Assembly (NCBI GenBank): GCA_964016885.1
Contig: OZ024740.1
Coordinates: forward strand, 353,524,001 to 353,588,000
Direction of reading: 5' to 3'
Source of the DNA: Eledone cirrhosa
Lineage: Eukaryota
DNA: 64,000 nt
Shown here: positions 39,867 to 63,860 of the stretch, piece after piece
How positions within the stretch are numbered: position 1 is the stretch's first letter
How the letters are laid out: every line of letters starts with the position of its first letter
Notes under the pieces: generated by a model
What the model was told of the DNA's origin: nothing
The model's input: only the letters and a program-made list of their open reading frames with translations
The model's database searches: none
Made by a program: the position numbers and the translations under genes

Positions 39867-40215
39867 TACGATATTAATAAATGGAAACTATATTTATAAA
39901 ACCATATTTATTTCATTATACATATTTCAAGGACACCAAGTTAAATTATGGTGTGCTTTCATCAGATAAAATATAATATAGAGCAGTTTTATAAATAAAT
40001 ATTGACATACCCTTAAAGAATGCAACCATTACTGTTGAAAGTACACCATAATTTAACTTGGTGTCCTTGAAATATGTATAATGAAATAAATATGGTTTTA
40101 TAAATATAGTTTCCATTTGTTAATATCGTATTTTTACTCCAATTATTTGTTTAGTGCTTTATATCAGTTATAAAAATATTTGCTTGTTGTATCCCAACAA
40201 CTTAAATTGAACTTT
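39867..40215. repeat. Fold-back element F1, copy B
   Basis: Arms at about 39867-39961 and 40036-40130; the inversion junction falls at a shared TGAAA. Confidence 0.85.
39910..39972 (-). ncRNA. Type I hammerhead ribozyme (F1), intact core
   Basis: ATTTTAT-CTGATGA-AAG ca CACCA..TGGTG tc CTT-GAAA-TATGTA-TA-ATGAAAT. Confidence 0.8.
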
Positions 40216-44500: not shown

Positions 44501-45194
44501 ATGTCCAGAAAATGTTTTGAATTCAGCAAGTCACATAATCTTTTAATAAGTAAATGATAATGTTCCCCATGTTTCTTTTCAGTCGAACTTACATAGTTCG
44601 TCAATGTAAGTATATACGAAAGTTAAACTTCGTAAGACGTTGTCGATGAATTTTTGAAAGCTCATATAACATGAAGAAAAATTCATAGTCCGATAGGTGC
44701 GGTAATTTCAGATTTATGGATATCTTTAGGCTCTATAGGGATAAGATTGTAAGCCCCGACCAAGTCAATTTTTGAAAAAAAAAAAATGTTGCAGCCTAAA
44801 TAAAATTCGTAAAGTAGTGAAATGTTAGATGCGTTATGGCGTAGAACAAAATGCTTTGCAATATTTGTTTACTTTGAGTTTAAATTCCATGGAAGATAAT
44901 TTTGCCTTTCATACTTTGCAGGGTGATAAAATAAATCATCAACCAGCCCAGAGTGGTGAAACGGAGGAATTGTTAAGACGTTGAACGAGATGTTTTTTGT
45001 ATTTGTTTCGTCTCATTGTGTTCAGAGCTCCATTGTAGTTTATTTGGATAGTAGACTTAACCAGTCGTCTCGTTTAACGCCTCACCTGACTCTTGGATGT
45101 CTTAAGAAGAGTCTACTCTGTTGCGTCCAAGCCTGATCTTGGAGACCTTGACAGGAGCTATCGGCACTGTTCTAATTCTTCACGACTTAAACAG

Positions 45195-46937: not shown

Positions 46938-46975
<38 letters not shown>

Positions 46976-46983
<8 letters not shown>

Positions 46984-47656
46984 CGTCCTTTCACGCACAA
47001 GGCGTCAAGGTACGCATGTATTGTCCAACCAAGTGCCAGTGTGGTTCAATGGCGGGTTAATAAATTAACGAGCCAGAACAAATATAAACAAGGTTTAGTA
47101 AATAATGAAAAAGTTTCAAAATAAATTTTAAAAAATTGACTTTACCTACTATAGTTACCTTTTACTAAACCTTGTTTATATTTGTTCTGGCTCGTTAATT
47201 TATTAACCCGCCATTGAACCACACTGGCACTTGGTTGGACAATACATGCGTACCTTGACGCCTTGTGCGTGAAAGGACGTATTTCATATTACTACTACCT
47301 CCACATACGTTGAGAACAAACCGGGTCATTCCGACTGCTGCTGATAACAGCGGTGGCTAGTTCGACCTACCTCCTTTTGCCTCTATCTTTACTACGGCCC
47401 TTGATAAACCTGTTCTACATCATCCACTCTCATCCCAGGAACAGTCTTTGATAGCGCTAGTTTGTGATTTAAATTCAGGAATTTTATATTCTTTGAATGA
47501 AAAGAACCTTCTGACGAGAATCTCTCTTTGCAACGAAGGCCGTATGGCCTACGTTTTATTTCTGGGATTCGAAACCGATCGGTAAAGGTAACTATAGTAG
47601 GTAAAGTCAATTTTTTAAAATTTATTTTGAAACTTTTTCATTATTTACTAAACCTT

Positions 47657-47662
<6 letters not shown>
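46976..47662. repeat. Non-coding element F3: inverted arm plus a terminally redundant 483-bp unit, in (TA)n
   Basis: 46976-47102 is the reverse complement of 47161-47287; 47583-47662 is the reverse complement of ~47084-47163; tttactaaacc recurs at 47161 and 47644. Confidence 0.88.
47506..47589 (+). ncRNA. Type I hammerhead ribozyme (F3) with an enlarged loop II
   Basis: acctt-CTGACGA-GAATCTC-(~39 nt)-GGGATTC-GAAA-CCGA-TC-ggtaaaggt; stem I is imperfect. Confidence 0.65.
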
Positions 47663-47719
<57 letters not shown>

Positions 47720-48042: not shown

Positions 48043-48232
48043 GGATTGACAGTATCGGTAGAGGGTCGGACGCCATGCTTTCCACCATAGAGTTACGGCC
48101 CTTTATAGTCTGAGCTCAAATCCCGCCGAGGTTAACTTTGCCTTTCATCCTTATGGGGTCGATAAAATAAAGTACCAGTAATACACTGGTATAATTGCTG
48201 GCCTTGTGCCAAAAGTAAAAACAATTATTATT
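48043..48232 (+). mobile_element. SINE S1 copy inserted in (TTA)n
   Basis: Closely similar to 18318-18502; flanked by ATT repeats. Confidence 0.88.
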
Positions 48233-52142: not shown

Positions 52143-52461
52143 ATATATATATATATACATACATACATACATACATACATGCACACACACATACATGCAT
52201 GCATACATACATGCATGCATACATACATGCATGCATACATACCTACATACACACACATATACGTATGTATGTATGTATGTATGTATGTATGTATGTATGT
52301 ATGTATGTATGTATGTATGTATGTATGTATGTATGTATGCATACATACATACATACATGGATACATACATACATATATGCATGTATGCATACATACATGC
52401 ATACATACACACACACACATACACATATGTATATATATATAGATAAGTGTATATAGATACA

Positions 52462-54994
52462 TAACGGTCGTTACATCGATGACTGTATCGGAGCCACGAC
52501 CCTCACCCGAGAACAGCTCGACTCCTTTCTCTCCTTCTTCTGCTCCTTCCACTCCTCCCTCCACTTCACCACCTCTATCTCCACCACCCACGTCCACTTC
52601 TTAGATATCTCCGTCGCCATCGACCCCTCCCACCACTCCCTCGTCACCTCCGCCTTCTTCAAACACACTGATTCTCACTCCTACCTCGACTTCACCTCCT
52701 CCCACCCTGATGCTGACTTTGACTCCCAGGCCCTTTCCCTAGTCAGCCATTTCATCCGCAGAGGTTATCCCCCCTCCCCCGTCCACACCGCCCTCACTCG
52801 CGTCCGTGCTGTCCACCGCTCCACCGCCCTCCCCCACGCCACCCCTCCCCCCCTCCCCCTCCACTGCACCATCCTCAGCCTCATCCGACGCCTCCAGTCC
52901 GACCCCTCCACCTCCCACATCTTCCTATCCCCACCACTCCCCTCCTTCAAACGCGCACGCAATCTCCGCACCCTCCGCGTCCGCAGCTCCCTACCCCAAC
53001 CCACGCTTTCTTTCCCCCCCGCTTCCCTTCCCTGTTCCAGGCCTCGTTGCAACAGCTGCCCCACATCACCAACACCACCACCTTCCAGTGTCCCAACGGC
53101 CACTCTCTCTCCGGCATGCCTTCCGCTGCACTTCCTCCAACCCAGTCTATGGACTTCGCTGCACGGAGTGCAGCGCAACCTACGTCGGACAGACTGGACG
53201 TCGCCTGGCGGACCGGTTTACCGAACACCTCCGGGATATTGGTCTCGGCGGGAGTTCCTCCATCGCCCGCCACTTTGGCTCCCCTGGACACTCCGCGCAC
53301 CACCTCACAGTCTGTGGCCTACTCCAATGCCACGGAACACCCGCCACTCGCCTCAGGGTCGAACAACGCACCATCTTCACCCTACAGACCCACACTCCCT
53401 CCGGCCTGACTCCCCACCCCTATAGCCTTCGACCGCCCTGTTTCCACTCACCCCACATATCCCCCACTAACACACTCCTCCTTTTCACCGCCCACCCCCT
53501 TGGCCCACCCCACAACTAACAATACTAACAGCCCCACCCCACCCACGACCACCCTCCCCCAACTAACAATACTAACATCCGCACCCCTCCCCCTATCACA
53601 CATACACCCACCGGTACATATATAGACGCACTCACACTATCCACACACCCTACTACCACCACTAACCCTCACCCACACATCCACTCCAACCACCACACAA
53701 CTAATACCACTAACATCCCCCCGACCCCACGCACACGAACACACCCACCCACCCACACCCATTTACTCCACCCACTCTACACACCCTACAACCACTCACC
53801 CCACTAACACACCCACATTCAACCCTTTCTCCACCACCAGTATACTAACACCCACTAAAACCCCCTTCACCACACACACTCATCCAAACACGCACACACA
53901 CACCAGTACACTACACTCCCTCCACCGGCCCCCACACCTTTTCTCTCCCTCTCCCCGTTCCACCCACACCCATTCACACACACACACACATCCCACTAAC
54001 ACCTCTACTAATACACACCCCATCCCCCCGCATGACCCCCTCCTCACTCCACCTTTCACCCTACCCATCCTCTCCCCCTGTCCACCGCACCGCCGCACAC
54101 ACTGACACACAGACTTTCTCCACCTGCCATTCCCCTCTACTGCTGCTATGCCTTCTCCTGCCTTGACCCTCTGACCACTTCCTGTTGCGCGCGCACCTCA
54201 CATCTCCCTTCTTCCAACTACCACAACCATTGGCCATCGTTCCCACTATCCACTCCATAACATGGAAAATATTCGGCAACCCTTCACACCCTCTACGGAA
54301 CTACCTTAGGAACTTACCCACGGACATTCGCTCACAAAATCTTTTTTCGAACCACGCCACCTACATCCACAAAACTTATAAACACCAACACACACGTGCG
54401 TACCCCCACACATACACACACTCAACCTCCGGAATCCTCTCCCCCCACCCCTCTGACCCCTCCCCATCCACACGCACACACATTCCGCCCTACACCCCAC
54501 CCCACACACACACCTTTTCCTGAACATGGAACCTCGTTCTTCCCCCAACTCTCACATTCACATATACACACACACACGTACACCTACACACACACACCAC
54601 CTTCAGCCCTCCCCGCTCGGACACCCCGCCTCCCTCTCCCCACTCCACCACCACCCCTACACGCCCCATACCCTTCCACCACTTGTTTATCTTCATGTTT
54701 ATTTTAATTTTATTTTTTTAATTTTTTTATATTTATTTTTATTTGTACCCCTTCCACCGTTTTTCCTCCCTTTCCTCCCCCTTTTTTCTAAATGTCTCTC
54801 CTCCACTCCCCCACACACCCTCGGAACTCTCTTCCCATCCACTTTTCGCCTGAAGAAGGGCTTATGCCCGAAACGTCGTTCCCCACCCCCACTCTCAAGA
54901 GCGTGAAACTAATAAACCTTTGTCTGTACTGCCTCTCTGTTTTGTTCCCGTTCCATTTTTCACTACATATATCTATATATCCCTCTCTCTCTCC
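52462..54994 (+). mobile_element. C-rich Penelope-like element (RT C-terminus + GIY-YIG endonuclease + long 3' UTR/pLTR)
   Basis: RYIDD at about 52469-52483; HFLDISV and FKHTDSHSYLDFTSSHP; CTSSNPVYGLRCTECSATYVGQTGRRLADRFTEH (GIY-YIG); hammerhead near the 3' end. Confidence 0.9.
54847..54880 (+). ncRNA. Minimal type I hammerhead in the PLE pLTR
   Basis: cgc-CTGAAGA-A-GGGC ttat GCCC-GAAA-CG-TC-gtt; palindromic ACGT stem III, typical of dimeric PLE hammerheads. Confidence 0.8.
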
Positions 54995-57137: not shown

Positions 57138-57190
<53 letters not shown>

Positions 57191-57229
57191 ATATTAATAA
57201 ATGGAAACTATATTTATAAAACCATAATT

Positions 57230-57293
57230 ATTTTATTATATATATTTCAAGGGCGACCAAGGTATATTATGGTCCGCTTTCATCAGATAAAAT
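57230..57293 (-). ncRNA. Type I hammerhead ribozyme (F1), left arm
   Basis: ATTTTAT-CTGATGA-AAG cg GACCA..TGGTC gcc CTT-GAAA-TATATA-TA-ATAAAAT. Confidence 0.85.
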
Positions 57294-57470
57294 ACAGGTT
57301 TGTTTTATAAATAAATATTGACATACCCGGAAAAAAGACAACCTCAACGGTTGAAATTCGCTGGATAGTGAAATTACAAGTACAATCCATTAATTTAATC
57401 CAGCGAATTTCAACCGTTGAGGTTGTCTTTTTTCCGGGCATGTCAATATTTATTTATAAAATAAATCTGT

Positions 57471-57534
57471 ATTTTATCTGATGAAAGCGCACCATAATTT
57501 ACCTTGGTCGCCCTTGAAATATATATAATAAAAT
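57471..57534 (+). ncRNA. Type I hammerhead ribozyme (F1), right arm
   Basis: Perfect 7-bp stem I (ATTTTAT/ATAAAAT), CTGATGA and GAAA cores, palindromic ATATATAT stem III, AUA site. Confidence 0.85.
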
Positions 57535-57666
57535 AATTATGGTTTTATAAATATAGTTTCCATTTATTAATATATTGTATATTTACTCCACTAATTTGTT
57601 GAGTGCTTTATATCAGTTATAAAAATGTTTAAGCTTGTTGAATCCCAGCAAATTAAATATAACCTC

Positions 57667-57753
<87 letters not shown>

Positions 57754-62509: not shown

Positions 62510-63860
62510 TTTTTTTGTGTTGCACCATAGAGCATGTGTGTTTACGTATGTCATTGTGTTTATATGTGGGTAGAGATGTGTGCTGATATAGGTATGTATG
62601 TTGACGTGTGTATGTTGTGAGTTCGTCTTAGGGAGAAGTGTTTAGACGGGGTCCGTATTTGTTAATGAAGTAAGATTCCTTGCTGATGTGCTGGGTGTGG
62701 GTGGCATTATCTTTAAATTTGTAGAGGTGAAAGATTCTGAAGTTGGGATGATTTTGGGCGGCACAGGTATCAATGTGTTCCCTCAGTGGTATTTTCCTGT
62801 ATTCCCGTATTTTAATTTGGGATCTATGGACAGTCATACGTTGGCGGAGGCTGTCTTTGGTCTGGCCTATGTATTGTTCTCGACAACCTGAGCAAGTTAA
62901 TACATATATTAGATTTTCCGATGCACATGTGAAATTGTGTTTTACTATAAAACGTTGTCCATCTTTGAAATAGAATTCCGAACCCTCTATTAGGTTGAGG
63001 CAAATGCCACAGTTGGGTCTATCGCATTTTTTTACTGTGGTTTTCGTTGTTGTGGTTGGCAGTACTTTGGCATGTGTTAGGATGTTTTTCATTGACTTGG
63101 ATTGTCTTTTGCTCTTTATGATATCGTGTGTTCGTAGAATTTGGTTCATTCTATGGTTCTTTTTCAACACAGGGATGTTCTGGAGGATGGTGTCAAAGGC
63201 CTCATTGTTGAGAGGGTTGTGTGTGGAGATGTATGGAAGAGATTTTAGTTTCGGTTGATTTACTTTAGGGTGTCTAAGGTCCTGGGTACTGAGTTTTAGG
63301 GCACGTTGGATTCCATTGTCAATTAGTGATGCAGGGTAGTCCCTGCCTATGAGTGTGTCCTTTAGTTCTTGTAGCCGTAAGTAGCAGATGTTTTTATTGG
63401 AGACTATAGTACAGATTCTCTTGGCTAAGTTGTAGGGAATATTAATTTTAACGTGTCTAGGGTGGCAAGAGTTGAAGGGGAGATATTGCTTGGAGTCTGT
63501 GGGCTTGTAGTATATGTCTGTTTCTATTTTTTTGTTATGGATCTTAATGAGGAGCCTTGGCGCAAAATCAATTTTTTACATTCACATGACCTCTACCGAC
63601 CAATCAAAATTGTTTTGACCACAAGAATTTTTGCAACACCAAAGTAACGCTGGAGCCACTTTTTTAACATAAAAACAGGTAGAATTCCCAAAACTAATCA
63701 GATCAGAGCAAACAACACGGACACTCTATCTCAAAATTATTTTTGAAAAGCATTTAGAAATGCGCAACCGGTAAAAACTTAAAAACTTAAAACCACAACT
63801 GAATACTAACCCATACAATCACTAATACTCTTTTATTCCTAATTAAACCATTTTTCGACT
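61428..63860 (-). mobile_element. 5'-truncated Penelope-like element with an inverted terminal repeat (pLTR)
   Basis: GIY-YIG ORF 62628..63170 (FTCASENLIYVLTCSGCREQYIGQT..LRQRM..H); RT thumb KPTDSKQYLPFNSCHP at ~63460-63510; 61430-61730 is the reverse complement of 63557-63857. Confidence 0.9.
63740..63777 (+). ncRNA. Variant/degenerate hammerhead-like motif (U3:A8, A13C); mirror copy on the minus strand at ~61509-61546
   Basis: ttt-TTGAAAA-GCATT taga AATGC-GCAA-CCGG-TA-aaaa. Confidence 0.5.

What the first reader, a model, noticed from the sequence alone, without database searches (positions are those of the whole stretch)
46976..47662. F3: permuted 483-bp unit plus an inverted copy spanning the unit junction
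The plus-strand unit is terminally redundant (tttactaaaccttgtttata at 47161 and 47644). The inverted left part (46976-47163) reads continuously across the end-to-start junction and begins just downstream of the predicted hammerhead cleavage site (after 47580). This is what reverse transcription of a circular or multimeric self-cleaved RNA with a template switch would leave (inference).
Basis: partly seen in the sequence, partly recalled or inferred. Interest (0 to 1): 0.7.

Follow-up and report, generated by a model that had tools for sequence, protein, structure and literature searches.

The report
Twin-primed hammerhead retrozyme insertion
This is one of several hundred young insertions of a 483-base repeat with a predicted self-cutting RNA motif; its two back-to-back arms start at two fixed sites and were likely copied from one RNA molecule, probably a circle, by a Penelope-type transposon enzyme, a route proposed for such repeats but not yet shown.

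Summary
The insert is one copy of a young 483-nt non-LTR retrozyme family (1,129 exact hammerhead 29-mers in a 3.0-Gb genome) that sits in (TA)n.

The inversion is not a template switch. All 67 two-arm inserts among 100 parsed loci are head-to-head. In 69 of 70 assignable pairs one arm ends 80 nt and the other about 188 nt after the predicted cut. The two arms share a haplotype (1561 of 1575 sites). Autonomous Penelope-like elements here leave the same footprint. Best reading: both nicked DNA strands prime on one RNA (twin priming).

A circular template is likely but inferred: arms run up to 10 near-identical units, and 252 passes over the cut show no indel. The cut site is the top hotspot of inner ends, yet holds only 13 of 154. 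The 21-nt redundancy is just a 504-nt arm. No RNA data were found and no partner enzyme was identified. The scan noted this architecture before in other families of this genome.

The parts
46939..46977 (.). Left (TA)n target microsatellite
   Evidence: 84 of 100 loci have TA on both flanks, 99 of 100 on at least one
46974..47162 (-). Arm B: 189-nt inverted arm; outer 3' end at unit position U188, inner 5' end at U483-U2, the predicted cut (U1 = 47585)
   Evidence: 100% match to the circularly continued unit; junction
47161..47162 (.). Head-to-head junction with 2-nt microhomology
47161..47664 (+). Arm A: 504 nt = one 483-nt unit plus 21 nt; inner end U60, outer 3' end U80
47161..47643 (+). 483-nt retrozyme monomer, circularly permuted; no ORF of 130 aa or more
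   Evidence: 104 of 125 complete cut-to-cut monomers are 483 nt
47178..47181 (+). Site A (ATAT ending at U80), internal copy; the used copy is 47661-47664
   Evidence: 261 exact site-A/(TA)n junctions genome-wide
47182..47289 (+). 108-nt 'tail' between sites A and B, predicted hairpins; presumed enzyme-binding region (inference)
   Evidence: fold z only -1.56
47286..47289 (+). Site B (ATAT ending at U188)
   Evidence: 128 exact site-B/(TA)n junctions genome-wide
47506..47589 (+). Predicted type I hammerhead ribozyme: stem I 47506-47510/47585-47589, core 47511-47517, long stem II 47518-47570, GAAA 47571-47574, palindromic stem III 47575-47582, cut after 47584
47660..47717 (.). Right (TA)n target microsatellite

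Best explanation
This insert is one copy of a young, non-coding 483-nt hammerhead repeat family whose copies sit in (TA)n as two head-to-head arms with two fixed outer ends, and it was likely made by a Penelope-like reverse transcriptase/endonuclease priming from both nicked target strands on one RNA, probably a circle. Steps: (1) tandem copies would be transcribed and cut by the hammerhead into monomers that would be ligated into circles (inferred from known retrozymes); (2) a Penelope-type protein would bind the structured region between U80 and U188 and nick both strands of (TA)n (inferred); (3) one DNA end starts cDNA at site A and the other at site B (the paired fixed ends are shown; priming is inferred); (4) both cDNAs run on across the cut site for up to 10 units and stop at scattered places, somewhat more often at the ribozyme cut (shown); (5) the two cDNA ends would be joined by microhomology or filler and filled in (junction signature shown).
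For: 67 of 67 two-arm loci among 100 parsed are head-to-head. A+B pairing in 28 of 28 (sample chosen by identity), 34 of 36 (chosen by site A; 1 A+A, 1 A+other) and 7 of 10 (chosen by site B; 3 B+other, 0 B+B); 69 of 70 among pairs with both ends assignable. A third ATAT with the same TTTATAT context (U388) is no arm's outer end among these loci. Arms agree at 1561 of 1575 segregating sites in 59 loci vs 23% mismatch across loci; within the youngest clade 24 of 26 own pairs are mismatch-free vs 34% of cross pairs. Monomers differ by 0.58 substitutions within vs 16.5 between loci; 12 alleles seen in one locus only are fixed in all its copies, 6 of them across both arms; 0 indels in 252 passes over the cut. 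Junction microhomology of 2 nt or more in 49% of 45 filler-free joins vs 17% at random. An autonomous RT + GIY-YIG family shows one long and one short end in 10 of 10 loci seen in both orientations. A second family has a hammerhead-like motif with site A 81-83 nt after its cut. In vitro a PLE protein cleaves and extends both strands and starts at two internal RNA sites (PMC11167929).
Against: No RNA evidence of expression, cleavage or circles was obtained. No autonomous element with significant sequence similarity to the unit was found among 100 PLE-anchored loci fetched; the best candidate's 80-nt segment scores z 1.9 only (12 of 300 shuffles as high). Homogeneous arrays could also come from a homogeneous linear multimer or from later tandem expansion; 50 of 103 units tie with a unit elsewhere and 5 are nearer to one. 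A second cluster of inner ends at U323-336, mostly at arm length 711-718 (6 of 28 second-pass vs 1 of 70 first-pass), could mark the 5' end of linear transcripts. 30 of 95 loci have one A or B arm only. For the anole PLE, hammerhead cleavage was not needed for insertion in vitro. Only 1 of 9 Xenopus retrozyme dimers cleaved in vitro.
Confidence: 0.62

Rival explanations
1. Same twin priming by a Penelope-type enzyme, but on linear uncleaved multimeric transcripts of existing tandem arrays; no circle is needed.
For: Explains read-through, shared haplotype and precise junctions equally well. Palindromic stem III suggests slow, dimer-dependent cleavage (PMC4209133). Uncleaved RNA was the dominant substrate for the anole PLE. 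The U323-336 end cluster may be a transcription start.
Against: Linear copies cannot outgrow the parent, and should inherit mosaic units. In 16 arrays of 3 or more full units, 18 minority alleles are not mosaic elsewhere; the 5 shared ones are 4 at a T/A run boundary and 1 single site. A subfamily 12% diverged still has 9 of 10 identical units (L125). One array alternates a dead and an intact hammerhead core with period 966 (L124), as a dimer circle would give; this is a single locus and a local two-unit duplication also fits.
Confidence: 0.27
2. One reading: one cDNA with a template switch or fold-back makes the inverted part, starting at the cleaved RNA end.
For: In this copy and three others (L074, L079, L280) the B arm ends at U483, within one base of the cut. 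The cut region is the top hotspot of inner ends. Self-priming on antisense RNA was proposed for PLE inversions (PMC3846280).
Against: Fold-back on the first cDNA could only copy what that cDNA holds and would end at or before its start; the second arm ends 108 nt beyond it and can share no sequence with it (L108, L073, L120). 141 of 154 inner ends are outside U477-483. Junctions differ from locus to locus.
Confidence: 0.06
3. DNA-level satellite: arrays and inversions arise by recombination or repair in (TA)n, with the hammerhead a bystander; or an assembly artefact.
For: Tandem expansion by unequal crossover is the standard satellite model and is invoked for retrozymes in bioRxiv 10.64898/2026.07.22.740005.
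Against: Copies are dispersed over many contigs with base-exact outer ends. Both end junctions with (TA)n appear as loose ends in contigs of public runs of one study. The hammerhead helices covary.
Confidence: 0.05

Closest known systems
Metazoan non-LTR retrozymes (Cervera and de la Pena 2020, PMC7229834, passages and parts 3-4 of 6 read; review PMC7761336, passages; Li et al. bioRxiv 10.64898/2026.07.22.740005, parts 1-3 of 5)
   Same: Protein-free tandem repeats with one type I hammerhead per unit, low GC, monomers to multimers, co-occurring with PLEs; circle-templated multimeric cDNA was proposed.
   Different: Unit is 483 nt with an unusually long stem II. 'Inverted' and 'target site' do not occur in PMC7229834; here inversion, (TA)n targeting and two fixed ends are the rule. 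Circles are shown there and untested here.
EN+ Penelope-like elements, Neptune type (PMC8557442 and PMC3846280, passages; PMC11167929, parts 1-2 of 4; PMC4209133, passages)
   Same: Head-to-head inverted 5'-truncated copy, tail on one end only, microsatellite targets, hammerhead with palindromic helix III about 80-90 nt upstream of the first start site, two internal start sites.
   Different: No ORF; the tail is 108 nt rather than 30-40; both arms can be multi-unit arrays. The papers leave the origin of the inversion open or invoke self-priming or endonuclease resolution.
LINE-1 twin priming (recalled, no paper read)
   Same: Both target strands prime on one RNA; the cDNA ends join by microhomology to give an inversion.
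   Different: The second site here is fixed, there is no poly(A), and the arms overlap in sequence, which needs strand displacement or a repeated template.

Membership tests
Non-LTR retrozyme | Type I hammerhead in each repeat unit | tested here: met
   Core and three helices; 92.7% of cells paired, 9 of 15 pairs with changes on both sides, 0 of 500 shuffles as high on covariation score; no Rfam hit at gathering
Non-LTR retrozyme | Short tandem repeats, dimers to multimers, dispersed | tested here: met
   Arms up to about 10 units on many contigs
Non-LTR retrozyme | No protein coding, no LTR | tested here: met
   No ORF of 130 aa or more over the insert; the redundancy varies between copies
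Non-LTR retrozyme | Self-cleavage of the RNA | not testable with these tools
   Needs in vitro assay
Non-LTR retrozyme | Accumulation as circular RNA | not testable with these tools
   No RNA run was listed
Penelope-like element (autonomous) | ORF with RT and GIY-YIG endonuclease | tested here: not met
   None in the insert; no parsed arm was seen to run on into an ORF
Penelope-like insertion footprint | Head-to-head inverted copy with a tail on one end, microsatellite target | tested here: met
   67 of 67; 69 of 70; 99 of 100
Derivative of an identified PLE pLTR | Sequence homology to an autonomous element's pLTR | tested here: inconclusive
   No significant match in the PLE loci fetched; geometry shared with the L240/L243 family, z 1.9; only some of the genome's PLE families were sampled

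The most novel reading that the evidence does not exclude
These insertions are direct genomic records of double rolling-circle reverse transcription: a dimeric Penelope enzyme primes both strands of a cut (TA)n at two dedicated sites on one covalently closed ribozyme RNA circle, and the same two-site twin priming explains the inverted pLTR and one-sided tail of all Penelope-like elements.
Probability: 0.5. Interest if true: 0.72.

Novelty: new member of a known kind. Interest (0 to 1): 0.5.

Why it matters
Two questions are open in the papers read: how Penelope-like elements get their inverted copy and one-sided tail, and whether retrozyme circles really serve as templates for new insertions. 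This family offers hundreds of very young insertions, a 483-nt donor, two base-exact start sites and candidate enzymes with open frames in the same genome, so both questions become testable. The element class itself is known, and the scan has noted the same layout in other families here.

Tried and rejected
No RNA holder was listed; this is no evidence on expression. Contigs of three runs from one study cover the unit but cannot show ends, strand or circles. Rfam found nothing at gathering score. Partner search: the 784-aa RT + GIY-YIG family, a second ORF family, 30 GIY-YIG loci and 20 further loci gave no significant similarity to the unit; profile hits there were retrozyme relatives beside PLEs. 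The dead-core variant occurs 4 times in the genome, twice in L124 and once each in two more distant copies, so the alternating pattern could not be replicated. The 21-nt repeat as a target-site duplication or LTR was rejected: it is internal unit sequence and varies with arm length. A target duplication cannot be read inside (TA)n. Rows dropped: 5 loci picked by hand (L125-L129) and arms with other outer ends were left out of the stop statistics (157 arms used); a third distant segment in L058 was ignored; L279 gave no segment of 24 nt or more; the first 25 nt of each arm were not scored. Some of the 22 'filler' junctions are subfamily differences from the reference. Seven literature searches listed no paper on paired fixed ends or twin priming in retrozymes; the library lacks most subscription papers, and supplements (closed for the bioRxiv paper, not opened for the others, e.g. 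the model in Fig. S9 of PMC7229834) may bear on this.

Full report
Observation. A 21-nt direct repeat lies 483 nt apart at 47161 and 47644. The left part, 46974-47162, is a 189-nt exact reverse complement of the unit continued across its end-to-start junction. Both sides are (TA)n. A type I hammerhead fold has its core at 47511 and its predicted cut after 47584. I number the unit from the first base after the cut (U1 = 47585). The left arm then runs from U483 (U483-U2, given 2 nt of microhomology) to U188; the right arm runs 504 nt from U60 to U80. Rfam gives no match at gathering score, but in 11 relatives 92.7% of cells pair and 9 of 15 pairs change on both sides; 0 of 500 shuffles reach the covariation score and slid controls fall to 24-53% paired. 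Related sequences inflate the shuffle test, so the slid control carries more weight.

The family. The genome (3.0 Gb, organism not established) holds 1,129 exact copies of a 29-nt hammerhead stretch. The best-scoring full units are 98-100% identical to the window copy. I parsed 100 loci: 40 chosen by identity (window included), 55 chosen by an exact site-A end on contigs C1 and C2, and 5 by hand; then 20 more chosen by a site-B end. Of 125 complete cut-to-cut monomers, 104 are 483 nt.

Outer ends are fixed and paired. All 67 two-arm loci among the 100 are head-to-head with 3' ends outward, and 99 of 100 have TA repeats on at least one flank. Outer ends fall at U80 (site A; 261 exact junctions) or U188-196 (site B; 128 exact junctions). 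Pairs are A+B in 28 of 28, 34 of 36 and 7 of 10 two-arm loci of the three samples; there is one A+A and no B+B. The second sample cannot show B+B and the third cannot show A+A, so each was sampled on purpose. Both sites end in ATAT, matching the target, but a third ATAT at U388 is not used, so position and not only microhomology selects the sites. Relatives about 62-67% alike keep two ends, at about 95 and 199 nt after their cut. One-arm inserts are common: 30 of 95.

One RNA per insertion. The two arms agree at 1561 of 1575 segregating sites in 59 loci, against 23% mismatch for arms of different loci; in the youngest clade 24 of 26 own pairs have no mismatch against 34% of cross pairs. Head-to-head junctions show microhomology of 2 nt or more in 49% of 45 filler-free cases against 17% for random joins; 22 of 67 have filler. 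A fold-back model fails because the second arm ends 108 nt beyond the first arm's start and can share no sequence with it (L108).

Inner ends and the cut. 120 of 157 arms cross the cut by at least 10 nt, 77 exceed one unit, and in 32 of 63 two-arm loci both arms cross. Inner ends are scattered, with a peak at the cut: 12 vs 4.0 expected within 5 nt, 13 vs 2.7 at U477-483, against 227 read-through passes; the scan-corrected P is 0.001 for the 7-nt window. Four B arms, the window's among them, end at U483. Most of the peak lies a few bases upstream of the cut, in the palindromic stem III, which only a ligated or uncut template can supply. The 26 arms of the third sample gave 1 vs 0.4-0.6, too few to confirm. 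So the window's copy may be a run-off at a cleaved end, but it is not typical.

Circle or linear multimer. Monomers differ by 0.58 substitutions within a locus and 16.5 between loci; 252 passes over the cut have no indel; 12 alleles seen in one locus only are fixed in all its copies; minority alleles in arrays are almost all unshared. This pattern needs a one-unit bottleneck followed by regrowth at each insertion, which rolling round a circle gives most simply. L124 alternates a dead and an intact core with period 966, as a dimer circle would, but it is one locus. Against: homogeneous linear parents or later expansion are not excluded, and A arms stop at U323-336 in 6 of 28 second passes vs 1 of 70 first passes, which may mark a transcription start. 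No RNA data could be had.

The likely enzyme. A young 784-aa RT + GIY-YIG family inserts in (TA)n with one short end and one end about 38 nt longer in 10 of 10 loci seen in both orientations. Another family (938-aa open frame, GIY-YIG above cut-off, RT just under) has a hammerhead-like motif with the U3-A8 core, site A 81-83 nt after its cut ending in TTTATA, and a second end about 65 nt further. Its similarity to U1-80 is marginal (z 1.9), so it is a candidate by geometry only. 'Neptune-type' rests on the cysteine motif before the endonuclease as described in PMC8557442; no tree was built.

Comparison with print. Tandem type I hammerhead repeats that give circles are known, and circle-templated multimeric cDNA made by PLEs was proposed (PMC7229834; PMC7761336; bioRxiv 10.64898/2026.07.22.740005). 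Inverted copies, one-sided tails and microsatellite targets are known for PLEs, with the mechanism called undefined (PMC8557442; PMC3846280). A PLE protein cuts and extends both strands and starts at two internal sites in vitro (PMC11167929). My seven searches listed no paper joining these into fixed A+B twin priming on one retrozyme RNA. Eight earlier notes of this scan describe the same layout in other families of this genome; none matched this sequence. They are not independent support.

Verdict. A real feature and a new family of a known class. Twin priming at two fixed sites on one RNA is well supported (about 0.89); that the RNA is a circle is likely (about 0.62). Interest 0.5.

Noticed in passing
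window 57186-57670: A different hammerhead family as a head-to-head pair in (TA)n (cores at 57286 minus, 57478 plus); the right arm carries an extra tail of about 90 nt. A related single core lies at 39965 minus.
   Followed up: partly
window 62628-63575 (-): 3' part of a young RT + GIY-YIG Penelope-like ORF; many genomic copies share a 784-aa open frame.
   Followed up: partly
L176:4004-4153 (just past the window end): A 91% identical short copy of this retrozyme family ending at site A, beside the Penelope-like element.
   Followed up: no
L124:5301-6944: 3.4-unit array with period-2 variants, one of them in the hammerhead core (G8 changed in units 1 and 3); possible dimer-circle product.
   Followed up: partly
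unit positions U323-336 (window 47424-47437): Cluster of inner ends, mostly at arm length 711-718; possible transcription start or pause site; unexplained second-pass bias.
   Followed up: partly
L240, L243, L244, L247, L251: Penelope-like family with a U3-A8 hammerhead-like motif and two 3' ends about 65 nt apart; candidate helper.
   Followed up: partly
L038, L058, L129, L074, L107, L163, L174: Relatives at about 62-77% identity keep the hammerhead helices, and where seen similar end spacing: an older superfamily.
   Followed up: partly
flanks of L031-L129: Many unrelated hammerhead families, often as opposed pairs, in the flanks of fetched loci.
   Followed up: no
window 52457-53519: Frame-broken stretch that resembles the end of a Penelope-type RT and endonuclease by eye; no Pfam match.
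   Followed up: no
window 44870-44935 and 48106-48171: Two 73% alike copies of a 66-nt segment, probably a dispersed repeat.
   Followed up: no
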